DNA from: Syntrophaceae bacterium UBA6252 | Lineage (GTDB): Bacteria; Desulfobacterota; Syntrophia; Syntrophales; UBA6807 | Assembly: GCA_002441265.1 (NCBI GenBank) | Contig: DJVQ01000022.1 | Location: forward strand, 24,290-88,289 | Direction of reading: 5' to 3' | DNA length: 64,000 bases | Part shown: positions 10,281-19,551 of the stretch, piece by piece | Layout of the letters: the number at the start of each line of letters is the position of its first letter | Position numbering within the stretch: position 1 is the stretch's first letter | The notes under the pieces: model-generated | What the model saw: only the letters and a program-made list of their open reading frames with translations | Told to the model about the DNA's origin: nothing | Database searches by the model: none | Position numbers and translations under genes: made by a program

Positions 10281-11777
10281 CTACCGCCCCGCGCCGGCCC
10301 CGATCTGCCGGGCCAGTTCACGGCTTTTCCTGAAATCGAAGTTCCGGAAGGCCTCCAGGCTGGCTTCCATGGTTTCCCTGTCCTTCCCGGCGCCGGCGGG
10401 AGGGCGGTTCCAGAGTCCCAGAAGAGCCCGCGTCGCCGTCAGGGCGTCCGCGCTTTTCTCGAGGGTCGTCACCAGGACGCCCTGGTCCTCCCCGCTCAGC
10501 CAGAGCGGGATGACGGCAAGACGGTTCTCCCGGTCCTCGAAAATGTCCCTTCCCTCCCGGTCGGACCGGAACGTGGCGTGGGAAAAACCCGGAGACCGGG
10601 GGTCGGCGTCCATGATCACCGCCGTGCCCGTGCCTTCCAGGGCTTCCGGATCCACCCTGACGACGAGAAGCCCCGAATCGGGCTGAATCCGGTCGTATCC
10701 GATCCGCCGGCGGTTTTCCACGAGATAGTACTTCCCGCCGGGCAGGGGGATTTTCACGACCAGGGTCTCCCCTCCCCTGTCCAGGGGCGCCAGGAAGACA
10801 CCCCGGGTCTCGCCGGGGTTCACCAGGACCGCCTGGTCCGGCGAGATCCATCCCAGCCGGATCCTCGTAAAGGAGGAAAGGCCCGGCGGCGGTGAATTGA
10901 TGTCGATGTAATGGGAGGACATGACATCCCAGGCACCCATGTACGTCGTGCACTCCTCCCACCGGTGGTTTCTCGAAGCGTCAGCCTGACGCTCGAAATT
11001 GTACAGTCAGGGGACGAGACGCCCGTCGGCGTGCACGCCTCCGAGGGCATGGAGAAAGTCATGGGCGAACATTCCCAGGGGGGCGTTTTCCGTTCCCACG
11101 AAGACCCCGCCTGAAAACTCCCGTCCCCCCTTCGAGCGCAGGGTGACGAACCGGGGATTTCCCCTCACTCCCGTGAGCATCCCCGGGTTGGCGCAGTAGC
11201 ACATCATGCCGTAGCCCTTTCCCGGAACGGTGGCGGCCCCCGGGACAATGAGCATGTTCTGGTACCGCGTGAAATCCACCCTGTCCTCCATGGCGGTCAT
11301 CGCGTCTTCTATGAGCTTCCTGACCCGGGTCCTGTCCACCTTGAAGTTGTCCGGGCTGATCCGGTACGCGGCCAGGGGTTCGGGAAGGGAGACCCACCCC
11401 ACGAAGTCGGACGTCACCCGGGCAAGGCCGTACGACTGGGCCTTGACATAGTCGCTCAATTCCTCCGTCACCCTCCGGCGGATCCTGTCCAGGGAAACCC
11501 TGGGCGCGACGTCGGGGAAACGGACCGCCGCCACGAGAAGACGCTGCTCCCCCGTTCCCCGGGTCGACTGGGGCCCCAGCAAATCCGGCGGGGCAGGGGT
11601 TTCCGTATTTCGTTTGAAGACGTTCTCTCCCTGAAAGACGTCCCCGCCCCGGGAACCTGCCGGCTGCGGGCCCTGGCAGGCCCAGACCAGGCAAAGAACG
11701 ACCCCAAGGGAAAGACCCCGCCATGACCATGCAATCTTTCGCAACATGACGGCCCTCCTTTTCTGAAAGGTTTTCAT
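10281..11777 (-). CDS. metzincin/M6-like metallopeptidase-like lipoprotein, open only if the TGA at 11007..11009 is read through (candidate selenoprotein, or else a pseudogene)
   Basis: Track ORFs 11007..11777 and 10281..10940 are in the same frame and are separated by a single TGA. Hand translation across the gap is continuous: ...FAHDFLHALGGVHADGRLVP-TGA-LYNFERQADASRNHRWEECTTYMGAWDVMSSHY... The N-terminus has a lipoprotein-type signal (LCLVWAC). The motif HDFLHALGGVH fits HxxxHxxGxxH. A SECIS-like hairpin follows the TGA. Confidence 0.5.
10969..10998 (-). promoter_or_regulatory. SECIS-like hairpin downstream of the in-frame UGA
   Basis: The mRNA reads UGA-CUGUACAAU-UUCGA-GCGUCA-GGC-UGACGC-U-UCGA-GAAA. 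The upper stem is 6 bp, the lower stem is 4 bp with one bulged U, and the apical loop is GGC. The GG begins about 21 nt after the UGA. Confidence 0.45.
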
Positions 11778-12015
11778 GCCGCCGGACCGGAAGGGTCTCC
11801 GGTCCGCCCATGCTTCAGCATACTACGAAGAGAGGGAAACGATCCATGGCTTTTTCCAATAGAACCACCTATAATCACTGAATATGAGAAATCCCGGCGG
11901 AGGGTTTCATTTGTGAAAGGCGGGATCGTGGGAGTTTCGATACACGACATTCCCGTAATTCCCTCAACGATCAGGAGACAACTAAGTGCGGCCATGGAAA
12001 AAAGAGGGGGAGCTT

Positions 12016-12930
12016 ATGAAGCGGGGGAACAAGGCAGCCGTCCTCTTTCCGGTGATCCTTTTGCCGGTGTTCCTGGGTTTGTGGATGCCGGAGCCGCTGC
12101 ACGGCGGCGGAAAGGCGGAAACGGAACACTTTGTCGTGAACGACCTCGACGGCCGGTTGACCGGAGAAGCGCTCGAGCGGTTCGCCGCCGACGCCGAGGC
12201 GGAATTTTCGAAAGTGGTCGATTTCTGGTCGCTGCCCTGCAACACGGAGGAAAACGGAAAAATCCTCCTGGAACTGAAACGGGCCCAGGGAGGGAAATCC
12301 TTCACCGTCTTCCAGATCGAGACGGGGGGGGAGGAAACGCGCAGGGTCCTCCGGGTCCAGGGAATCGAGAGCCCGCAGGAACTCGCCCACAAGATGACCC
12401 ACGCCCTTTTTCCCACGGGCGACAAGCTCATCCGGAACATGATGGGCATCCCCACGGAAACGCGCTTCGGAAACCCCGGGTCCTTCCCCATGTGCGGCTG
12501 CGACCTCGACGCCTGGGTCCCGGTCCTGATAAAAACGGGCGATTACATTCCCCTTTCGGAACTCCGGCCGGAGCACGAGGAATGGGGAATGACCTTCAAG
12601 GACAAAACCCCGTCCGTTTCGGACAGGAAAAAGCAGCACGCCTCCTACATCGAAGCGGGGTCGTTCGGTTCCTTCCTGATCCGGCGGTTCGGGATCGAAA
12701 AGGTCAAAGCCTTTTATCAGGCATCCCTCCGGCATCCCAGGCCCTGGAAGAAAATTTTCGGCCTCGACCTCGCCGGGCTGGAAGCGGAGTGGCTCAAAAC
12801 CGTAAGTGATTTCGCCAGGGAGAACGCCGCCCAGGCGGCATTTCTCGAAACGTTGTGGAAGAAGAACCCGGCCAGGGCCTGCTATGAGGCGCAGGACCTG
12901 ACGCGGAAGGGAGACAAGCCCTGGCGGTAG
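12016..12930 (+). CDS. hypothetical secreted protein with a degenerate peptidase-MA-like motif (HKMTH)
   Basis: An AGAGGGGGA RBS precedes the ATG at 12016. The N-terminus is signal-like (MKRGNKAAVLFPVILLPVFLGLW). The motif ELAHKMTHALFP resembles HExxH with Glu replaced by Lys. Confidence 0.5.
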   Translation: MKRGNKAAVLFPVILLPVFLGLWMPEPLHGGGKAETEHFVVNDLDGRLTGEALERFAADAEAEFSKVVDFWSLPCNTEENGKILLELKRAQGGKSFTVFQIETGGEETRRVLRVQGIESPQELAHKMTHALFPTGDKLIRNMMGIPTETRFGNPGSFPMCGCDLDAWVPVLIKTGDYIPLSELRPEHEEWGMTFKDKTPSVSDRKKQHASYIEAGSFGSFLIRRFGIEKVKAFYQASLRHPRPWKKIFGLDLAGLEAEWLKTVSDFARENAAQAAFLETLWKKNPARACYEAQDLTRKGDKPWR

Positions 12931-13211: not shown

Positions 13212-13433
13212 ATGGAGTCATCGGATCTGAAGAAATTCCTTGCAGGATTGTGCATCGCCAGCCTGCTGGCAGGGACGAGCCTCGGCCTGGCCGGCTGCCA
13301 GAAGAAAGCCCAGACGAGTTGAACCGGCAAAACGGGTACTGGAAGTACCCAGGGAACCGGCGCTCCCGGAGCCCCCGACACGGGGAAGAGCAGTTGAACG
13401 GGAGAAAAGAAAGGTACCGGCGGTACCAATTAA
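13212..13433 (+). CDS. sbtA: SbtA-like RiPP precursor: 73-codon lipoprotein-signal peptide with two in-frame UGA (candidate Sec) codons
   Basis: This ORF is not in the track because it is broken by TGA codons. An AGGAGG RBS sits 6 nt before the ATG at 13212. Hand translation gives MESSDLKKFLAGLCIASLLAGTSLGLAGCQKKAQTS-U-TGKTGTGSTQGTGAPGAPDTGKSS-U-TGEKKGTGGTN, ending in TAA. The TGAs are at 13320..13322 and 13395..13397, and a hairpin follows each. It lies immediately upstream of a radical SAM/SPASM gene. Confidence 0.6.
13334..13350 (+). promoter_or_regulatory. SECIS-like hairpin 1
   Basis: GGGUAC-UGGAA-GUACCC forms a 6-bp perfect stem. The loop begins 17 nt after UGA-1 (13320..13322). Confidence 0.45.
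13413..13427 (+). promoter_or_regulatory. SECIS-like hairpin 2
   Basis: GGUACC-GGC-GGUACC forms a 6-bp perfect stem, or 5 bp with a CGGCG loop. The loop begins 21 nt after UGA-2 (13395..13397). Confidence 0.45.
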
Positions 13434-13675: not shown

Positions 13676-15286
13676 ATGCCGCCTTCCCCGCTGGAGGATC
13701 TGGAAAAAATCTGTCCCGTCTGCCGCTCCTGCCTGGCCGGAGCGGGACGGCACGATATCGTGGCGGGATATCCGGGCGGAGGGTCGAATCGATCCTTTGA
13801 CGAGTACCTGAAAGACAATGAAAGCGAACTCGGGGAACTCGCCTTTCTCCCCGAACTCGCGCTGCTGGAACGGATCACGGCGGAGCTGAAGAACGGGGAC
13901 GTTCGGATCCCCTCGCCGGCCCGGCGCTTCGAAACCAATCCATCCATCCGTCTGGAAACGTTTTCCTGGCAAGGGCTTGCCGCGCTCCTCGAGGATGGCC
14001 GTCCCTCCCGGCCGCGCCCCGTGAAAAAACGGGAGACCGTTCTCGTCTGGCTCCATCCCGTATCCCGGTCGGTCATGGTTCAGGCCGGATCGGACGCCGA
14101 CTGGCTGGCCTTGAAGATCGCCGCCGAAGGCATCGACAAGGAACGCCTGGCCGAGAGGGAGGGCGTCCCCCTGGCGGTCATCGAGGAAGCGATGTCCCGG
14201 GCCGTGGAAAAGGGGCTGGTCATCGCGCCCCGCTCCCTGATCCGGAGGAATCCCGAAAGGACCCCTCCGGGGGTCCGGGTGGACGAGGAATTTCTAGAAT
14301 CCCCCTTCTTCACCCTCCAGCTGCACATCACCCAGGACTGCGATCTCCGGTGCAAGCACTGCTACGACCGCAGCCGGAGGTCTTCCCTCGGGCTGATGAA
14401 AGGCACCGCGCTGCTGGACGAGCTCAGGGAATTCTGCAGGGACCGTCACGTCCGGGGCCAGGTTACCTTTTCCGGTGGAAACCCCCTCCTTCACCCCGGC
14501 TTCTTCGATCTGTACCGGGCGGCGGTCGAACGGGGTTTCGTCACCGCCGTCCTCGGGAATCCCGCTTCGAGGGAAAACCTGGAGCGAATCCTCCGGATCC
14601 GGAAACCGGCCTTTTACCAGGTCAGCCTCGAGGGGCTGAGGGAACACAACGATGCGATCCGGGGGAAAGGCAGCTTCGACAAGGTCCTCCGGTTCCTTCC
14701 CCTCCTGAGGGAATACGGGATCCCGTCCCTGGTGATGCTCACCCTGACAGGAGACAACATGGACCAGGTCATCCCGCTGGGAGACCGACTCGCGGGCCTG
14801 ACGGACGGGTTCACATTCAACCGCCTCGCCCAGGTGGGAGAGGGGGCGAACCTCCGCCTACCCGCCCGGGACGATTTTCAATCGTTCCTTGCATCCTACC
14901 TGAAAGCGTCGGAACGGAACCCCGTTCTGACCCTGAAGGACAATCTCTTCAACATCCTCCTGCGGCGGGAGGGGAAAAAGCCCTTCGGGGGCTGCGCCGG
15001 ATACGGATGCAGCGCCGCCTTCAATTTCCTCGCCGTCCTTCCCGACGGGGAGGTCCACGCCTGCCGGAAATTTCCTTCCCTCGTCGGAAACATCCACGAT
15101 CAGCGTCTCGCGGATATCTATGATTCCGAACCCGCCGAAAGGTATCGCCGGGGAACGGCGGCGTGCCGCGCCTGCCCGATCCGGCCCGTCTGCGGAAGCT
15201 GCCTTGCCGTGATGTACGGACGGGGGATGGATATTTTCAACTCCCGGGACCCCCACTGCTTCATGGAGGAGGGCTTTCCGGGGTAA
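13676..15286 (+). CDS. sbtM: radical SAM/SPASM-domain peptide maturase (SbtM-like)
   Basis: The CxxxCxxC motif sits in ITQDCDLRCKHCY. The C-terminal SPASM pattern is GGCAGYGC...GEVHAC followed by CRACPIRPVCGSC...HC. A roughly 200-aa N-terminal extension contains CPVCRSC. A GAGAGG RBS lies upstream. Confidence 0.8.
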   Translation: MPPSPLEDLEKICPVCRSCLAGAGRHDIVAGYPGGGSNRSFDEYLKDNESELGELAFLPELALLERITAELKNGDVRIPSPARRFETNPSIRLETFSWQGLAALLEDGRPSRPRPVKKRETVLVWLHPVSRSVMVQAGSDADWLALKIAAEGIDKERLAEREGVPLAVIEEAMSRAVEKGLVIAPRSLIRRNPERTPPGVRVDEEFLESPFFTLQLHITQDCDLRCKHCYDRSRRSSLGLMKGTALLDELREFCRDRHVRGQVTFSGGNPLLHPGFFDLYRAAVERGFVTAVLGNPASRENLERILRIRKPAFYQVSLEGLREHNDAIRGKGSFDKVLRFLPLLREYGIPSLVMLTLTGDNMDQVIPLGDRLAGLTDGFTFNRLAQVGEGANLRLPARDDFQSFLASYLKASERNPVLTLKDNLFNILLRREGKKPFGGCAGYGCSAAFNFLAVLPDGEVHACRKFPSLVGNIHDQRLADIYDSEPAERYRRGTAACRACPIRPVCGSCLAVMYGRGMDIFNSRDPHCFMEEGFPG

Positions 15287-15328: not shown

Positions 15329-15354
15329 GGAGGGCCGCCCATGGGCGGCCCTCC
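15329..15354. terminator. strong GC hairpin between convergent genes
   Basis: GGAGGGCCGCC-CAUG-GGCGGCCCUCC forms an 11-bp perfect stem. It has no clean T-run on the plus strand and a short GTTTTG on the minus strand. Confidence 0.5.
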
Positions 15355-15400
15355 CGGTCTGTATCGCCGCCGCGACTCACGGCGAAAATCTTCCGGAGCG

Positions 15401-17413
15401 TCACCTTACATACAGAATCGATTCCCGGGTAAGATCCTTGAGGACCTCCTTCCCCATGTCTTCAACCTTCCTTCGGACAAGTTCCTTCTCGCCGAACGTG
15501 ATGGCATCGGTGAGACAGGTCTCCGCGCAGACGGGCAGGTCCCCCACGTGGATCCTCTCGAAGCAGAGGTCGCACTTGTGGGAGTATCCCCGGCCCCCGT
15601 CATACTGGATCACCCCGTAGGGGCAGGACTGGATGCAGGCACAGCCGCAGCTCTGGCAGCGGGCCGCCTCCCCCATGACCGCTTCCGCGGAGAGGCCGGC
15701 GGCGACCTCGTCGAAGGTCCCCGACCGTTCCTTCGGGTTTCTCAGGGGCATCACCGCCCGCTTGGCCGGATCGTATTTTTCCTTCTGGACCTTTGCCGTA
15801 TCCGTCCAGTCCCTTTCCCGGTTTTCACGGAGATCGAGCCCCTTCAGGTATCGGTCGATGGAAACGGCCGCCCTCTTTCCCGCGGCGATGGCCTCGACGA
15901 CCGACCGCGGTCCCGTGACGGCGTCCCCCCCCGCGAAGATGTCGGGATCCTCGCTCTGGAGGGTGACCGGATCGACCCGCAGGGTGCCCGTGCCGGTGAT
16001 CGTGCAGGCGCATTCCGGAGTCAGGCAGGACCAGTCCGTTTCCTGGCCGATGGAAACGATGACGTCGTCCACGGGGCGGGCGAACTCCGTTCCCGGGACA
16101 GGCACCGGTTTCTTCCTCCCGCTTTCGTCCGGTTCGGCAAGGCGCATCCTGATGAATTCGACTGCCTTGACGCGGCCCTGCTCGCCGATGAAGCGGGCAG
16201 GATAGAGAAGGGTCTCGATCCGGATTCCTTCATCCTCGGCTTCCCGGATTTCCTCTTCTCCCGCGGGCATCTCCTCGAGACTCCGGCGGTAGGCGATGAA
16301 GACCTCCTCCGCGCCGAGACGGCGGGCCGAGCGGGCGGCGTCGATGGCGGCATTCCCGCCGCCGATGACGGCCACCCGTTTTCCCATGACGGGCGGTTTC
16401 CCGCTGTTCACGGCGATGAGGAATTCATAGGCGGGATGAATGCCTTTCAGCCCTTCACCTTCGCTTCCCAGCTCCTTGCAGACCTGGGTGCCCACCGCGA
16501 AGAAAAAGGCCCTGTAACGTTTCTTCCTCAGTTTCGCGACGGTGATCTTCTTTCCGAAGTCCACCCCCGTTTTCATTTCGACGCCGAGGTCCCGGATCGC
16601 CCCGATCTCCCCCTCGATGACGTCCCGGGGCAGCCGGTATGCCGGAATCCCCCGGGTCAGCATGCCGCCGATGACGGGGGCCTTCTCGTACACAGTGACC
16701 CCGTACCCTTCCCGGGCGAGATAATAGGCGCAGGTGAGTCCCGCCGGCCCCGATCCGATGACGGCGACTTTTTCCGCCTTTCGGTCCCGGACGGGGGGAA
16801 CGTAACGGGTCTCCGCCTTCCCGTCCAGGTCGGCGAGGAAACGGTGGACGGCCCGGATGGAAACCGCCTCGTCGATCTCGCCCCGGTTGCAATGGGTCTC
16901 GCAGGGGTGGTAGCAGACCCTCCCGCAGACGGCCGGGAAAGGGTTCTCCTCCTTGATGAGGGCGAGAGCCTCCGGGAATTTCCCCTTGGCGGCCAGTCCG
17001 AGGTAGCCTTGGACGTTGATGTGGGTCGGGCAGTGGGCCATGCACGGGGCGGCTTTCGTCTTCTCCGCGGCCAGGGTCTCCGGGATCGTTTTGCATCCGT
17101 TGCAGACCTCCCGGTCGATCCGGACGATCCCCGTCTGGGCGTCCTTGCCGATGGCCCCTTCCGGGCAGGAGGGCAGGCATTTCGGTTCCGGGCAGTGCTG
17201 GCAAGGCATGACCCAGGAATCCACGGCGACGTTCGGGTACGTGCCTCTTTCCCGGTTTTCCACGCGAAGGTAGTAGGGGATCCCGTTGGGCATGGCCCGG
17301 GTGTGGTCAATGATCTCGTGGTAGTTCCTGCAGGCCACGATACAGGTGCTGCACCCGATACAACGGCTCAAATCTATCATCAGGCTTAACTGTTTCATGG
17401 TCTCCTCCTTCAC
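15401..17413 (-). CDS. chimeric electron-transfer subunit: DmsB-type 4Fe-4S ferredoxin with an inserted GltD-like NAD(P)H/FAD oxidoreductase module
   Basis: The N-terminus carries CIGCSTCIVAC, CQHCPEPKCLPSCP and CNGC. The middle is glutamate-synthase small-chain-like (CPTHINVQGY, CGRVCYHPCETHC, VAVIGSGPAGL, VAVIGGGNAAIDAA). The C-terminus carries CQSCGCACIQSCP and CDLCFERI...PVCAETC. The start overlaps the Mo-subunit stop (ATGA). Confidence 0.8.
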   Translation of the reverse strand: MKEETMKQLSLMIDLSRCIGCSTCIVACRNYHEIIDHTRAMPNGIPYYLRVENRERGTYPNVAVDSWVMPCQHCPEPKCLPSCPEGAIGKDAQTGIVRIDREVCNGCKTIPETLAAEKTKAAPCMAHCPTHINVQGYLGLAAKGKFPEALALIKEENPFPAVCGRVCYHPCETHCNRGEIDEAVSIRAVHRFLADLDGKAETRYVPPVRDRKAEKVAVIGSGPAGLTCAYYLAREGYGVTVYEKAPVIGGMLTRGIPAYRLPRDVIEGEIGAIRDLGVEMKTGVDFGKKITVAKLRKKRYRAFFFAVGTQVCKELGSEGEGLKGIHPAYEFLIAVNSGKPPVMGKRVAVIGGGNAAIDAARSARRLGAEEVFIAYRRSLEEMPAGEEEIREAEDEGIRIETLLYPARFIGEQGRVKAVEFIRMRLAEPDESGRKKPVPVPGTEFARPVDDVIVSIGQETDWSCLTPECACTITGTGTLRVDPVTLQSEDPDIFAGGDAVTGPRSVVEAIAAGKRAAVSIDRYLKGLDLRENRERDWTDTAKVQKEKYDPAKRAVMPLRNPKERSGTFDEVAAGLSAEAVMGEAARCQSCGCACIQSCPYGVIQYDGGRGYSHKCDLCFERIHVGDLPVCAETCLTDAITFGEKELVRRKVEDMGKEVLKDLTRESILYVR

Positions 17414-19551
17414 TTCGCGATGCGGACGCGCGTGGACACATGGGACTCACCGCCCACCACATCCTGCCATTCCAGGGTGGAACCGGCGTCGGGAATCAGG
17501 ATATTGTTCGACACGCCCTCCCCCATGACGGCCACCCGGCCGACGGTGGATCCGAACCCATGCCCCAGGCCGAGGCAGTCGGGCCGGATGGTTTCCGTCA
17601 GTTTCAGCCGGACCCGGATGCTGCCGCTCGGGGACTCGAGCGTCACGAGGTCCCCGTCGGAGAGACCCATTTTCGCCGCCGTGCCGGAATGGATCAGAAG
17701 GGGATTTTCGAAAAATCCCGACACCCGGTCGCGGAGCTGCGGGTTGTTGTGGGTCCACTGGCCCGAGCCGGAGTGATAGATGGTCCGGTACGAAACAAGG
17801 ATGAACGGAAACTCCTTCGCGTTGACCTCGTATTCCGGGGCCAGTTCCGGCCTCGGGAACGCCTGGTTCCAGGGCGCTTCCTCGAGGTCCTCCCACCAGA
17901 GGTGCAGTTTCCCGCTCGGGGTGCCGAAACCGCCCGCCTTCTCGTACTTCCGGAACCCCATCGTTCCCGGGGACCAGAGCCCGCCGATTTCCTGGAGCTT
18001 CCTCACCGACAGCCCCAGTCCCTTCAGCTGGATGTCGTAGTAGGCGATGTCGTTCTCGAACCGGAAATATTCCGGGACGATCCGCTTCCCGAGCTCGATG
18101 AAGACCTCGTTGGAGTGACGGCATTCCCCCGGCGGTTCGACGACGGGCTGCCGGAGGGCGATGCCGTGGCCGAAATTGTACCACCAGGGCATGTACAGGA
18201 GTTCCCAGCGCTCGAAGTAGGACTTGTCGGGCAGTACCAGGTCGGCGTATTTCGCCGTCTCCGACATCATGATCTCGAAACAGACCAGAAGTTCGAGAAG
18301 GGGCTCCCCCTTGCCGTCGGTCATGCACACCGCCCGCTGCCATTCCTGCTGGCCCATTTCCGTCAGGGCCGGGTTGGACTCGGCGGTGATCAGGATTTTC
18401 AGGCCCCCGTCCTTGATGGCCTGGGCCTCGTACCAGGTGGGCTCCATGATGAAGGAGTACTTGGCGAACCTGTCCCGGTCGGGGCCCGTACGGTGCCACC
18501 CGAGTTCATGGAGATTCGGGCCCGCCGGAACGGGTTCCACGGGGGACATGGGAGTCAGGTCGGGCAGGGGCTGCCCCCCCGGATTGTCGACGTTGCCCGT
18601 AACGACCAGGAATATGTTCCAGGCATGGGCGAAATCCATTGCATTTCCGAGCATGATGCCCTTGAAACTGTCCACGCCCACGGAGGGGGCCCGCGCACAT
18701 TCCTCCGCCAGATCGACGATCGTCCCGGCGGGCACGTCGCAGATCGCGGCCATCCGCTCGGGGGTCTTGTCGGCGATGTACACTTTCAGTTTCTCGAAAT
18801 CCCCCTCACGAACCCATCTTTCCACGAACGCCCTGTCATAGAGGCCGTTCATGACAAGGTGGTGAATCATCCCCAGGAAGAAAGCGGTGTCCCCGCTCGG
18901 CTTGATGGGAATCCACCAGTCCGCCTTGGCCGCTTCCGGGGTGAACATGGGATCGAGAACCACGAGTTTCGCCCCCCTGTCCCTGGCGTCCAGAATGTCC
19001 CTCGGGACCGAGGCGTCCTCGAGCCCGCCGAAGGCGCGCCGGCCGGACAGAATCATGATTCCTCCCTTGGGAACGGCGAACCACGCCGGAGGAATATGGT
19101 GATTGGGAACCCCGCCCATGGTCCTGATGAAACCGACGATCTTGGCCGAGTCGCAGTGCGGGAGGGCGGTGTTGATGAAACCGCCGTAAGCGTTCAGGAA
19201 CCTCCACTTCGGGTCCGTGATGCTGTGGGGGAAAAAATTCGCCGTGAGCTTGTGGGCCTCCCCCCTCGCCCTGAGCCCTCCGATTTTCTTCTCCAGGATA
19301 TCCATGGCCTCATTCCAGGATATCCGCTCGAACTTCCCTTCCCCCCGTTTGCCGACGCGCTTCAGCGGGTGGGTCAGGCGGTCCGGGGAATACTCCAGGG
19401 AAACGCCTGCCATCCCTTTCACACAGGCTTTTCCCCGGGCTTTGGGATTGCCCCGGACCTCCTTCAGGACGCCATTTTCGACCCTGGCGATAATGGCGCA
19501 TTCGGCCTTGCATTGGTAACAAGCGGTGGGGATCCACTTTGATTTTTCCAT
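17410..19551 (-). CDS. molybdopterin (Mo/W-bisPGD) oxidoreductase catalytic subunit, cytoplasmic type
   Basis: The N-terminal Fe-S motif is CYQCKAECAIIARV...GKACVKG. It has DMSO-reductase-superfamily length and layout. There is no twin-arginine signal. The substrate cannot be assigned from sequence. Confidence 0.85.
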   Translation of the reverse strand: MEKSKWIPTACYQCKAECAIIARVENGVLKEVRGNPKARGKACVKGMAGVSLEYSPDRLTHPLKRVGKRGEGKFERISWNEAMDILEKKIGGLRARGEAHKLTANFFPHSITDPKWRFLNAYGGFINTALPHCDSAKIVGFIRTMGGVPNHHIPPAWFAVPKGGIMILSGRRAFGGLEDASVPRDILDARDRGAKLVVLDPMFTPEAAKADWWIPIKPSGDTAFFLGMIHHLVMNGLYDRAFVERWVREGDFEKLKVYIADKTPERMAAICDVPAGTIVDLAEECARAPSVGVDSFKGIMLGNAMDFAHAWNIFLVVTGNVDNPGGQPLPDLTPMSPVEPVPAGPNLHELGWHRTGPDRDRFAKYSFIMEPTWYEAQAIKDGGLKILITAESNPALTEMGQQEWQRAVCMTDGKGEPLLELLVCFEIMMSETAKYADLVLPDKSYFERWELLYMPWWYNFGHGIALRQPVVEPPGECRHSNEVFIELGKRIVPEYFRFENDIAYYDIQLKGLGLSVRKLQEIGGLWSPGTMGFRKYEKAGGFGTPSGKLHLWWEDLEEAPWNQAFPRPELAPEYEVNAKEFPFILVSYRTIYHSGSGQWTHNNPQLRDRVSGFFENPLLIHSGTAAKMGLSDGDLVTLESPSGSIRVRLKLTETIRPDCLGLGHGFGSTVGRVAVMGEGVSNNILIPDAGSTLEWQDVVGGESHVSTRVRIAK

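What the first reader, a model, noticed from the sequence alone, without database searches (positions are those of the whole stretch)
10281..11777. Metzincin-like lipoprotein gene interrupted by a single in-frame TGA that carries its own SECIS-like hairpin
Two track ORFs (11007..11777 and 10281..10940) share a frame. Translating the 66-nt gap gives a continuous sequence with no other stop.

- **Position of the TGA:** it falls 8 residues after an HDFLHALGGVH motif (HExxHxxGxxH with Glu to Asp), in ...GRLVP-U-LYNFERQ... This aligns with the PDLYD/PDEYD segment that follows the zinc site in M6-type peptidases.
- **Hairpin:** a 10-bp bulged hairpin with a GGC apical loop follows. The first G of the loop is the 21st nt after the UGA.
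- **Context:** a nearby Cys (EECTTY) could partner the Sec. The gene lies two genes from the two-UGA peptide.

A Sec next to a metalloprotease active site would be a new selenoprotein type. The alternative is a recent nonsense pseudogene.
Basis: partly seen in the sequence, partly recalled or inferred. Interest (0 to 1): 0.75.

Follow-up and report, generated by a model that had tools for sequence, protein, structure and literature searches.

The report
Selenocysteine replaces metal ligand in protease-like protein
The single in-frame TGA in this exported, protease-like gene is almost certainly a genuine selenocysteine codon with its own conserved insertion hairpin, and it sits where related enzymes place the third ligand of their catalytic zinc, which defines a selenoprotein family absent from the catalogues I could check.

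Summary

- **One gene.** ORFs 11007..11777 and 10281..10940 (minus strand) form one 498-codon gene, interrupted only by TGA at 11009..11007.
- **Homologues.** 120 of 120 full-length homologues have Cys at that column. Of 61 loci in species-representative genomes that carry the motif, 51 have TGA there, 10 have TGC/TGT, and the frame always continues. At least 120 metagenome contigs show the same arrangement.
- **SECIS hairpin.** TGA-bearing genes keep GCGUCAG[G/U]CUGACGC at nt 18-32, with synonymous sites frozen and compensatory G-C/U-A/A-U changes at one pair. Cys forms vary freely in this stretch. All four published bacterial SECIS criteria are met.
- **Fold.** The protein is a distant M6 (immune inhibitor A) relative; Foldseek's top hit is 4YU6.
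- **Ligand column.** Canonical relatives read HExxHxxGLPDLYD, and a sister clade with the same insertion also keeps this Asp. This family reads HDxxH..GG+8 aa..P[C/U]LYD. The Sec column holds only Asp, His, Cys or Sec, so Sec most likely ligates the catalytic metal.
- **Novelty.** No peptidase family appears in a 2026 catalogue of 119 prokaryotic selenoprotein families or in NCBIfam.
The "third His" and the EECTTY Cys are not conserved, and linkage to the neighbouring SbtA/SbtM genes is not conserved.

The parts
10281..11777 (-). Complete gene for the M6-like selenoprotein. It has 498 codons from the first ATG. The more likely start is the ATG at 11747, and the stop is TAG at 10283..10281.
   Evidence: single frame with one internal TGA. 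TIGR03296 matches residues 104-373, across the TGA; full-length homologues of 460-477 aa.
11754..11760 (-). Shine-Dalgarno-like AAGGAGG, 6 nt upstream of the second ATG (11747). This suggests the true start is MLRKIAW...
   Evidence: Read directly from the sequence. N-termini of homologues align with this start.
11676..11747 (-). Signal peptide ending in the lipobox-like LVWA-C (Cys34 of the long numbering, 11678..11676), followed by QGPQ.
   Evidence: The closest subclade has ...[LI]xGC[KT]GPQ at the same place. Other subclades have ordinary signal peptides without this Cys. This rests on pattern matching only.
11193..11201 (-). Invariant C193-Y-C195 of the GYGMxCYCANPGM motif.
   Evidence: C193 and C195 are invariant in A1, and C195 is nearly invariant in the larger alignment A2. 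The motif is also present in the Asp-type sister clade, so it is not tied to Sec.
11049..11063 (-). HDFLH (His239, Asp240, His243). This is the HExxH-equivalent motif on the active-site helix, with Asp in place of the catalytic Glu.
   Evidence: D240 is invariant and H239/H243 nearly invariant. The motif aligns with HExxH of canonical M6-like proteins and of InhA2.
11007..11009 (-). UGA, read as selenocysteine 257. It lies in the column of the third metal ligand.
   Evidence: Cys in 120/120 homologous proteins. TGA in 51, TGC/TGT in 10 and GAC (Asp) in 7 related genome loci. Canonical relatives have Asp here and one relative has His.
11001..11003 (-). Invariant Tyr259, two residues after the ligand column (PxLY). 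This is the position of the metzincin "tyrosine switch".
   Evidence: Y259 is invariant. The role of the equivalent Tyr in metzincins is described in PMC12237041. The assignment here is an inference.
10971..10998 (-). Bacterial SECIS hairpin. The lower stem is specific to this lineage. The conserved core GCGUCAGGCUGACGC is at 10992..10978 and the apical loop GGC at 10986..10984.
   Evidence: Fold results. The core is exact in 49/52 genome sequences and 114/120 metagenome sequences. Synonymous sites are frozen only in TGA forms. Pair 18-32 occurs as G-C, U-A or A-U.
10920..10934 (-). GAWDVMS with Met286, the Met-turn equivalent.
   Evidence: M286 and D284 are invariant. The segment aligns with W[SC]LMS of InhA2 and canonical M6-like proteins.

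Best explanation
The gene 10281..11777 (minus strand) encodes one exported protein of about 490 aa. Its UGA at 11009..11007 is decoded as selenocysteine.

**Recoding.** Decoding is directed by a bacterial SECIS hairpin in the coding sequence immediately downstream. The hairpin has a 6-bp invariant core, an apical loop G[G/U]C and 20 nt of spacing from the UGA. It is presumably bound by SelB carrying Sec-tRNA(Sec). The comparative pattern is shown here; the SelB step is inferred from the established bacterial mechanism.

**Protein.** It is a divergent relative of M6/thuringilysin (immune inhibitor A) metzincin-type metallopeptidases. Sec257 occupies the column that holds the third zinc ligand in canonical relatives, the Asp of HExxHxxGxPD.

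**Proposed active site (inferred, not shown).**
- The metal is held by His239, His243 and the selenolate of Sec257.
- Asp240 stands in for the catalytic Glu.
- The invariant Tyr259 and the Met286 turn complete a catalytically competent site.

**Proposed function (inferred).** It is a periplasmic or membrane-anchored metallohydrolase whose metal centre has been made softer. The precedent is the His2Cys Fe(II) site of peptide deformylase, which I cite from my own knowledge.

**Evolution.** The ligand went from Asp (kept in a sister clade) to Cys/Sec, with repeated Sec/Cys exchanges afterwards.
For: **Recoding**
- All 120 full-length homologues have Cys at the TGA column.
- Of 61 motif-bearing loci from GTDB species-representative genomes, 51 have TGA, 7 TGC and 3 TGT, and the frame stays open.
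- A metagenome scan used a pattern that contained the TGA but no SECIS bases.
- In 52 Sec forms, codon entropy is 0 at codons +5 to +9 (GAG, CGT, CAG, TCT/GCT, GAC), against 0.8-1.9 at other degenerate codons of the same genes.
- In Cys forms the same codons vary; Arg, for example, uses four codons.
- Across 112 distinct sequences, nt 19-24 and 28-31 are invariant and nt 25 is only G or U.
- Pair 18-32 appears as G-C, U-A and A-U.
- Hairpin energy is lower in Sec forms than in Cys forms (mean -9.9 vs -5.8 kcal/mol, Mann-Whitney p = 1.3e-5).
- The Asp forms lack the conserved GCGUCAG[G/U]CUGACGC core, and what they fold into differs from one sequence to the next.
- All four bSECIS criteria in PMC13188914 are met: loop 3-9 nt, G in the first two loop positions with G[G|U], spacing 16-37 nt, and MFE no higher than -7.5 kcal/mol.
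- The same window holds SbtA (a known selenoprotein family) and SbtM. Hairpins after both SbtA UGAs have GG[A/C] triloops at the same distance.

**Protein**
- TIGR03296 matches across the TGA.
- The AlphaFold2 model of a 64%-identical Cys homologue has pLDDT 90.7. Its best PDB match is InhA2, 4YU6 (E = 3.5e-14, TMq 0.58), followed by ADAM and fragilysin metzincins.
- The InhA2 active site reads GVFAH(A)FGHDLGLPDEYD...WSLMS.
- A graded alignment runs from HExxHxLGLPDLYD, to HExxHxLGG+insertion+LPDLYD, to HDxxHxLGG+insertion+P[D/H/C/U]LYD. It places Sec in the Asp-ligand column.
- Only metal-ligating residue types occur in that column.

**Misannotation**
- Eight of the 150 listed 50%-identity cluster representatives end exactly at ...RL[VIA]P, the residue before the Sec.
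Against: - No experiment shows Se incorporation.
- No tRNA-Sec or selA/B/D gene lies in the window, so Sec competence of this genome is indirect, resting on SbtA/SbtM.
- The hairpin core is nearly invariant, so classical covariation is thin: 2 of 8 pairs, with 6 of 500 shuffles reaching the observed score.
- Metal ligation by Sec rests on sequence homology. I could not get model coordinates to measure distances.
- The structure was predicted for a Cys homologue, not for the window protein.
- Glu to Asp in HExxH usually cripples metzincins. NCBIfam also has a model for "M6-like inactivated metalloprotease" that weakly matches residues 297-358, so catalytic activity is uncertain.
- No conserved neighbouring genes hint at a substrate.
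Confidence: 0.85

Rival explanations
1. The TGA is a recent nonsense mutation (TGC/TGT to TGA) or a sequencing error, and the gene is a pseudogene.
For: TGC to TGA is a single-base change. Cys is the residue in all annotated full-length homologues. No read data are available for the window.
Against: TGA sits at the identical column in 51 other species-level genomes and in at least 120 metagenome contigs, all with open frames downstream. Amino-acid conservation continues through the "gap". A hairpin under purifying selection accompanies only the TGA forms.
Confidence: 0.01
2. Translation really stops at the TGA. The locus makes two polypeptides, an N-terminal 256-aa piece and a C-terminal 219-aa piece restarted at ATG 10940, which may assemble.
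For: Gene callers annotate it this way. Truncated products ending at ...RLVP are in public protein sets. An ATG exists at 10940.
Against: The 22 codons between the TGA and that ATG are conserved as protein, LY[DN]FERQ[AS]DAS.... The ATG codon is the conserved Met of the YMG motif, not a start. The split would cut a single domain between the active-site helix and the Met-turn. Cys and Asp forms are single chains.
Confidence: 0.02
3. Sec is incorporated but acts as a redox centre, not as a metal ligand. It could form a selenenylsulfide with a Cys, such as the invariant CxC or the subclade-specific EECT Cys. The protease scaffold would then serve as a redox enzyme or a redox-gated protease.
For: Most known selenoproteins are redox enzymes (PMC13188914). 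C193/C195 are invariant. By metzincin topology they would lie on the strand bordering the cleft, which is my inference. The window's subclade has an extra Cys 19 residues downstream.
Against: The CxC motif is equally invariant in the Asp-type sister clade, so it did not co-evolve with Sec/Cys. The column holds Asp, or in one case His, in relatives. These are ligand-competent but not redox-active residues. The EECT Cys is absent from most Sec forms.
Confidence: 0.12
4. Sec is incorporated, but the protein is a catalytically dead pseudo-protease. It would use the His2Sec site to bind or sense a thiophilic metal or metalloid (for example Hg, Cd, Cu or As) at the cell surface.
For: The catalytic Glu is replaced by Asp in the whole clade. 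There is a weak match to an "inactivated M6-like" model. Several recently described selenoproteins are metal-binding (Table 1 of PMC13188914).
Against: The rest of the catalytic apparatus is invariant, namely the Tyr two residues after the ligand, the Met-turn and the Gly of the turn. That is unusual for dead enzymes. Asp can still act as a general base. No metal-resistance genes are conserved nearby.
Confidence: 0.15

Closest known systems
Immune inhibitor A / thuringilysin, MEROPS family M6 (PDB 4YU5/4YU6; TIGR03296; PF05547)
   Same: - It is the best structural match of the family model (E = 3.5e-14).
- The significant HMM match spans the TGA.
- The active-site block shares its layout: xFAHxFxHxLG...P-ligand-xYD...WxxMS.
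- Both are exported.
   Different: - Scores fall below both curated cut-offs (71 vs 110.8 bits; 13 vs 22 bits).
- The catalytic Glu is Asp.
- An 8-residue insertion separates the Gly turn from the ligand.
- The third ligand Asp is replaced by Sec (Cys in some members).
- The protein is much shorter, about 470-500 aa against 750-800.
Snapalysin (M7) and other metzincins with HExxHxxGxxD/H
   Same: The motif logic is the same: two His on the helix, a Gly turn, a third ligand, then a Tyr two residues later and a Met-turn.
   Different: Among those I looked at, no metzincin has Cys or Sec as the third ligand. PMC12237041 lists only His or, rarely, Asp.
Selenoproteins in which Sec ligates a metal: formate dehydrogenase (Mo/W-Se) and [NiFeSe] hydrogenase (Ni-Se)
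   Same: Sec replaces Cys as a direct metal ligand. Sec and Cys forms coexist in related organisms. Both are typical of anaerobic Thermodesulfobacteriota (PMC13188914).
   Different: Those are redox enzymes with complex cofactors. Here the scaffold is a mononuclear-metal hydrolase fold, and ligation is only inferred.
Peptide deformylase (HExxH plus a Cys ligand, Fe(II)); cited from my own knowledge
   Same: It is a hydrolase with a His2Cys metal site built on an HExxH helix. This shows that a thiolate third ligand is compatible with hydrolysis.
   Different: The fold is unrelated, no Sec forms are known to me, and it is cytoplasmic.
SbtA/SbtM thio(seleno)oxazole RiPP system (TIGR04081/TIGR04082), present in the same window
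   Same: The genome is the same. Both use in-frame UGA followed by hairpins with GG[A/C] triloops at nt 22-27.
   Different: The proteins are unrelated, and homologues of the M6-like gene are not found next to SbtM elsewhere.

Membership tests
Bacterial selenoprotein gene (Sec-UGA + bSECIS) | In-frame UGA aligned with Cys in full-length homologues | tested here: met
   120/120 homologues have Cys at the column. 10 genome loci have TGC/TGT.
Bacterial selenoprotein gene (Sec-UGA + bSECIS) | UGA conserved at the same column in orthologues of many species, with the reading frame continuing | tested here: met
   51 of 61 genome loci. 120 metagenome stretches, all open downstream.
Bacterial selenoprotein gene (Sec-UGA + bSECIS) | bSECIS model of PMC13188914: 3-9 nt loop, 4-16 bp stem, G in the first two loop positions (G[G|U]), 16-37 nt spacing, MFE no higher than -7.5 kcal/mol | tested here: met
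   Loop GGC, or A-GGC-U with A and U paired. Stem of 6 bp (core) up to 12 bp. Spacing of 20 nt. Energy of -9.5 kcal/mol for the 19-nt core and -14.3 for 45 nt.
Bacterial selenoprotein gene (Sec-UGA + bSECIS) | RNA-level selection on the hairpin, specific to UGA-bearing genes | tested here: met
   Codon entropy is 0 at codons +5 to +9 in 52 Sec forms and 0.5-1.8 in Cys forms. Invariant third positions are seen in 112 distinct sequences. Compensatory changes occur at pair 18-32.
Bacterial selenoprotein gene (Sec-UGA + bSECIS) | Sec machinery (selA, selB, selC, selD) in the same genome | not testable with these tools
   No tRNA in the 64-kb window. Support is indirect: SbtA with two UGAs plus SbtM in the window.
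Bacterial selenoprotein gene (Sec-UGA + bSECIS) | Selenium shown in the protein (75Se labelling or mass spectrometry) | not testable with these tools
   No experimental data were available.
MEROPS M6 / thuringilysin (TIGR03296, PF05547) | Family HMM score above the curated cut-off | tested here: not met
   TIGR03296 scores 71 bits against a cut-off of 110.8 (E = 1.5e-19). PF05547 scores 13 bits against 22.
MEROPS M6 / thuringilysin (TIGR03296, PF05547) | Thuringilysin-like fold | tested here: met
   The AF2 model of Cys homologue P0001 (pLDDT 90.7) best matches 4YU6 (E = 3.5e-14, TMq 0.58). The window protein itself was not modelled.
MEROPS M6 / thuringilysin (TIGR03296, PF05547) | HExxH with a catalytic Glu | tested here: not met
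   The motif is HDFLH, and Asp240 is invariant in the whole clade.
MEROPS M6 / thuringilysin (TIGR03296, PF05547) | Asp as third zinc ligand (HExxHxxGxPD) | tested here: not met
   The column holds Sec in the window. It holds Asp in canonical relatives and in the sister clade.
MEROPS M6 / thuringilysin (TIGR03296, PF05547) | Met-turn downstream of the ligand | tested here: met
   WDVMS with invariant Met286 aligns with WSLMS/WCLMS. This is by sequence only.
   The His of GGVH is Y, S, F, Q, E, D or H in homologues.
SbtA/SbtM selenobiotic gene cluster | Conserved co-location of the M6-like gene with SbtM/SbtA | tested here: not met
   tblastn of SbtM and the other neighbours against 74 homologous loci, each with up to 6 kb of flank, gave no SbtM hit. 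No conserved neighbour cluster was found.
Bacterial lipoprotein | Signal peptide ending in a lipobox Cys | tested here: inconclusive
   The window has LVWA-C and the closest subclade has xxGC followed by GPQ. Other subclades lack the Cys. No dedicated predictor was available.

The most novel reading that the evidence does not exclude
This would be the first selenoprotein family built on a metalloprotease (metzincin/M6) fold. A selenolate would directly ligate the catalytic metal in place of the canonical Asp or His. That would be a "seleno-metallohydrolase" widespread in anaerobic Thermodesulfobacteriota, and a natural experiment running Asp to Cys to Sec in tuning a hydrolytic metal centre.
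Probability: 0.55. Interest if true: 0.8.

Novelty: new variant of a known kind. Interest (0 to 1): 0.7.

Why it matters
- **New kind of role for Sec.** Known selenoproteins are overwhelmingly thiol-type redox enzymes or redox metalloenzymes. A Sec in the ligand position of a hydrolase-type metal site would extend selenium biology to a new enzyme class. It would also give metalloprotease chemistry a natural soft-ligand variant, with three natural states (Asp, Cys, Sec) to compare.
- **Annotation.** Sec forms outnumber Cys forms about five to one among the species-representative genomes sampled. They are stored in public protein sets as truncated fragments ending at ...RLVP. An HMM plus SECIS rule would repair hundreds of gene models and add a family to selenoprotein catalogues.
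- **A clean SECIS example.** The tightly conserved hairpin shows RNA structure dictating protein sequence. Loop nucleotide 25 can be only G or U, so residue +8 can be only Ala or Ser.

Tried and rejected
- **PDB profile search.** Searching solved structures with the family alignment found nothing relevant by sequence: 0 hits at E up to 1, and one spurious hit at E up to 10. The link to InhA2 came from fold comparison and from a short query that I wrote from memory of the M6 motif. That query retrieved the real 4YU5 sequence.
- **Structure of the fused window protein.** I modelled homologue P0001 instead. Coordinates are not returned, so Sec-to-His distances could not be measured.
- **Rfam.** An E-value scan of 10900..11100 gave no SECIS family, only a chance snoRNA match at E = 1.3.
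- **Gene context.** SbtM, the two unknown neighbours, the glycosyltransferases and the TetR gene are not found beside homologues. Clustering of flanking ORFs gave no conserved partner; the best real cluster was an ABC ATPase in 6 of 61 loci. The idea that this protein is the SbtA leader peptidase is therefore rejected as a general function.
- **EECTTY Cys as resolving partner.** Rejected as a general feature because it occurs in one subclade only.
- **Alternative genetic code (TGA read as Trp or Gly).** Rejected: the TGA is confined to one Cys-aligned column and is accompanied by a SECIS.
- **Literature.** Full-text searches found no bacterial peptidase-type selenoprotein. Term searches inside the 2026 review, deep-Sep, BSepDB and the Haft preprint also found none. 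PMC4706643 (InhA2 structure) and PMC12013261 (Haft and Tolstoy 2025) are not held. The BSepDB supplements are not held either.
- **Molybdopterin oxidoreductase at 17410..19551.** I checked for an upstream in-frame TGA and found none.
Full report
**1. The observation**

On the minus strand, ORF 11007..11777 and ORF 10281..10940 share a frame. Translating 10281..11777 gives 498 codons with a single internal stop, the TGA at 11009..11007, in ...HDFLHALGGVHADGRLVP-*-LYNFERQADASRNHRWEECTTYMGAWDVMS....

The sequence after the TGA folds into a bulged hairpin. Nt 12-23 pair with nt 27-39, counted from the U of UGA, and the apical loop is GGC at nt 24-26. This is window 10998..10971. The 45-nt stretch folds at -14.3 kcal/mol, z = -2.56, which is suggestive but not decisive. 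The fused protein matches the M6-domain model TIGR03296 over residues 104-373, across the TGA (E = 1.5e-19).

**2. Is the TGA a Sec codon?**

*Homologous proteins.* A search of the large protein collection with the fused sequence returned 222 relatives. The 120 listed are mostly full-length proteins of 460-477 aa at 50-68% identity. In a MAFFT alignment, all 120 have Cys in the column of the TGA.

*Genome loci.* Gene callers cannot produce Sec forms, so I fetched DNA. The search for related loci on one genome per GTDB species gave 74 loci, nearly all titled as Thermodesulfobacteriota or "Deltaproteobacteria" MAGs. They include Desulfobacterales, Syntrophales, Smithella and Desulfatiglandaceae. 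Of the 61 loci with the motif:
- 51 have TGA at exactly this codon;
- 7 have TGC and 3 have TGT;
- the frame continues with conserved protein sequence in every case.

*Metagenomes.* I scanned metagenome contigs with a pattern that encodes G-M-x-x-H-D-[FY]-x-H-x3-G-x9-TGA-CTN-TAY and contains no hairpin bases. All 120 are open after the TGA.

A nonsense pseudogene or a sequencing error cannot explain this pattern.

**3. The hairpin behaves as a SECIS**

*Core sequence.* In Sec forms the core GCGUCAG[G/U]CUGACGC (nt 18-32) is exact in 49/52 genome sequences and 114/120 metagenome sequences.

*Compensatory changes.* The exceptions include double changes at pair 18-32. Three Smithella genomes have U-A and L092 has A-U. 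L040 has C-G at pair 17-33.

*Frozen synonymous sites.* Within the 52 Sec forms, codon-choice entropy is 0 at codons +5 to +9 (GAG, CGT, CAG, TCT or GCT, GAC). Other degenerate codons of the same genes show 0.8-1.9 bits; the Arg at -4, for example, uses five codons. In the 10 Cys forms the same positions vary, with Arg +6 using four codons and Ser +8 using four.

*Larger sample.* Over 112 distinct sequences, nt 19-24 and 28-31 are invariant. Nt 25 is only G or U, so residue +8 is only Ala or Ser.

*Controls.* Hairpin energies are lower in Sec than in Cys forms (mean -9.9 vs -5.8 kcal/mol, p = 1.3e-5). The Asp-type relatives do not carry the conserved core, and their local folds differ from one another.

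*Published criteria.* The bacterial SECIS model in PMC13188914 requires a 3-9 nt loop, a 4-16 bp stem, G in the first two loop positions (usually G[G|U]), 16-37 nt between the UGA and the loop, and MFE no higher than -7.5 kcal/mol. All are met: loop GGC, a stem of at least 6 bp, 20 nt spacing, and -9.5 kcal/mol for the 19-nt core.

*Limit of the covariation evidence.* Formal covariation is thin because the core hardly varies. Two of 8 pairs show double changes, and 6 of 500 shuffles reach the observed score. The weight of the argument lies in synonymous-site freezing that is specific to TGA genes.

*Rfam.* No matching family was found. I expected this, because bacterial SECIS elements seem to differ from one gene family to the next.

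**4. Internal control in the same window**

- ORF 13676..15286 is SbtM (TIGR04082, 686.8 bits against a cut-off of 350).
- 13212..13433 encodes an SbtA precursor with two in-frame UGAs (TIGR04081, 45.4 bits against 30.5). SbtA is a catalogued selenoprotein family.
- The hairpins after both SbtA UGAs have 6-7 bp stems and GGA or GGC triloops at nt 22-24 and 25-27. This is the same geometry as the M6-like hairpin.

The organism therefore decodes UGA as Sec and uses this hairpin shape. No tRNA-Sec or sel gene lies in the window.

**5. What the protein is**

*Family scores.* Pfam and NCBIfam place it below threshold in M6: PF05547 at 13 bits against 22, and TIGR03296 at 71 against 110.8. The same holds for Cys and Asp relatives.

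*Fold.* An AlphaFold2 model of the 64%-identical Cys homologue P0001, built on a 102-sequence alignment, has mean pLDDT 90.7 and pTM 0.89. Its best PDB matches are the Bacillus anthracis immune inhibitor A2 zymogen, 4YU6 and 4YU5 (E = 3.5e-14, TMq 0.58). ADAM, ADAMTS, fragilysin and snake-venom metzincins follow.

*Active-site comparison.* The InhA2 active site in the PDB reads GVFAH(A)FGHDLGLPDEYD...WSLMS, where the Ala is the engineered Glu, and snapalysin reads HETGHVLGLPDHY. According to PMC12237041, the metzincin motif is HExxHxxG/NxxH/D, and Asp is the third zinc ligand in snapalysins and thuringilysins. The window protein reads GMFAHDFLHALGG-VHADGRLV-P-U-LYN...WDVMS.

**6. Sec sits in the ligand column**

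Three results support this.

- **Asp sister clade.** Seven more distant genome homologues (40-44% identity) carry the same 8-residue insertion and HDxxH, but have GAC (Asp) at the Sec column: RLVPDLYDF.
- **Sequence gradient.** An exhaustive phmmer search with the N-terminal fragment returned a gradient of relatives. The local-pair alignment of 23 of them is unambiguous:
  - canonical HExxHxLGLPDLYD...W[SC]LMS;
  - HExxHxLGG + insertion + LPDLYD (P0237);
  - HDxxHxLGG + insertion + PDLYD;
  - ...PCLYD;
  - one ...PHTYD (P0202);
  - the window's ...PULYN.
- **Residue types.** The column contains only Asp, His, Cys or Sec, all of which can ligate a metal.

The rest of the apparatus is invariant or nearly so: His239, Asp240, His243, Gly246/247, Tyr259 (the position of the metzincin "tyrosine switch") and Met286.

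Its candidate partner Cys (EECTTY) exists only in the window's subclade. The invariant C193-x-C195 motif is also present in the Asp clade, so it did not arise with Sec.

**7. Mechanism I commit to**

*Shown comparatively:* UGA257 is recoded as Sec through a coding-region SECIS.

*Inferred from the established bacterial pathway:* SelB with GTP and Sec-tRNA(Sec) binds the apical loop G24-K25 and delivers Sec to the ribosome.

*Inferred from signal peptides:* the protein is exported. In the window's subclade a lipobox-like xxGC/LVWAC, followed by GPQ, suggests lipid anchoring. Other subclades have plain signal peptides. The likely start is ATG 11747, which is preceded by AAGGAGG.

*Inferred from homology:* His239, His243 and the selenolate of Sec257 bind the catalytic metal. 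Asp240 is the general base, and Tyr259 and the Met-turn support catalysis. The protein would be a metallohydrolase with a softer metal site than its Asp-ligand relatives. Peptide deformylase, with a His2Cys Fe(II) site on an HExxH helix, is a precedent for a hydrolytic site with a thiolate ligand; I cite this from my own knowledge.

*Not known:* which metal is bound, which substrate is cleaved, and what advantage selenium gives. No conserved gene neighbourhood helps.

*My estimates:*

| Claim | Probability |
|---|---|
| Sec is incorporated | about 0.95 |
| Sec is a metal ligand | about 0.65 |
| The protein is an active hydrolase | about 0.5 |

**8. Evolution**

A neighbour-joining tree of 62 sequences puts the Asp forms as a separate outgroup clade. 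Cys forms appear at seven or more separate places among Sec forms. Some Cys forms still carry an intact or nearly intact core hairpin (L031, L054, L066), which suggests recent Sec-to-Cys conversion. One MAG carries both a Cys and a Sec paralogue (L003 and L007). This is the usual dynamic of Sec/Cys families.

**9. Is it known?**

- A 2026 review tabulates 119 prokaryotic selenoprotein families and subfamilies. None is a peptidase or M6-like protein, and none has a PULY-type motif.
- The words peptidase, protease and metalloprotease do not occur in that review, in deep-Sep, in BSepDB or in the Haft and Gwadz preprint.
- NCBIfam release 20 holds models for the recently named selenoprotein families. 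It gave no dedicated hit for the Sec, Cys or Asp forms.
- Public sources name the Cys forms "M6 family metalloprotease-like protein" or "hypothetical protein".
- Sec forms appear as truncated proteins ending at ...RL[VIA]P. Eight of the 150 listed cluster representatives end this way.

The family therefore appears undescribed as a selenoprotein. Two caveats apply: the library lacks most subscription journals, and two relevant papers could not be read.

**10. Verdict**

The recoding mechanism is ordinary, a standard bacterial SECIS. What is new is the protein family and the position of Sec, the metal-ligand column of a metzincin-type fold combined with HDxxH. I rate it a new variant of a known kind, with interest 0.7.

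Noticed in passing
window 13212..13433 (+) and 13676..15286 (+): An SbtA thio(seleno)oxazole RiPP precursor with two in-frame UGAs (at 13320 and 13395) lies next to its radical SAM maturase SbtM. Both score above the NCBIfam cut-offs. Hairpins after both UGAs have GGA or GGC triloops at nt 22-27, the same geometry as the M6-like SECIS.
   Followed up: partly
window 11986..12930 (+) and 15341..17389 (+): Two sizeable ORFs flank the SbtA/SbtM pair: 314 aa with a signal peptide and an HKMTH motif, and 682 aa. Neither has a Pfam or NCBIfam match, and neither is found next to homologues of the M6-like gene. They could be uncharacterised parts of the Sbt cluster.
   Followed up: partly
window 11563..11577 (-), residues 67-71 (LGPQS); same motif in all family members: An invariant LGPQS motif sits in the otherwise low-confidence, poorly conserved N-terminal region, just before the first strand of the catalytic domain. 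It could be a propeptide or latency segment, or a processing site.
   Followed up: no
window 10984..10986 (-); loci L001-L194: In Sec forms, the residue 8 positions after Sec is only Ala (GCU) or Ser (UCU), because its first base is loop nucleotide 25 of the SECIS, which is only G or U. This is a clear case of RNA structure constraining protein sequence. Cys forms also show Pro and other Ser codons there.
   Followed up: yes
P0166 (218 aa, ends ...HDTLHLVGGSIGDRRLTP): A more distant HDTxH-type clade (about 36% identity) whose full-length members have PCLYD also includes a representative truncated exactly at the ligand column. Sec forms may therefore exist in that clade too.
   Followed up: no
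P0202 (415 aa): One relative has His at the ligand column (LPHTYD) together with HDxxH. Four residue types (Asp, His, Cys, Sec) thus occupy this position across the superfamily.
   Followed up: partly
L003 and L007 (both from MAG JAPLIW01); L006/L020 and L005/L025: Single genomes carry two paralogues of the family. In one case a Cys form and a Sec form sit side by side in the same MAG. This suggests subfunctionalisation, or a selenium-independent backup copy.
   Followed up: no
window 17410..19551 (-): A molybdopterin oxidoreductase of the PhsA/formate-dehydrogenase type lies close by (best match 270 bits, below all equivalog cut-offs). It has a complete N-terminus and no upstream in-frame TGA.
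   Followed up: partly
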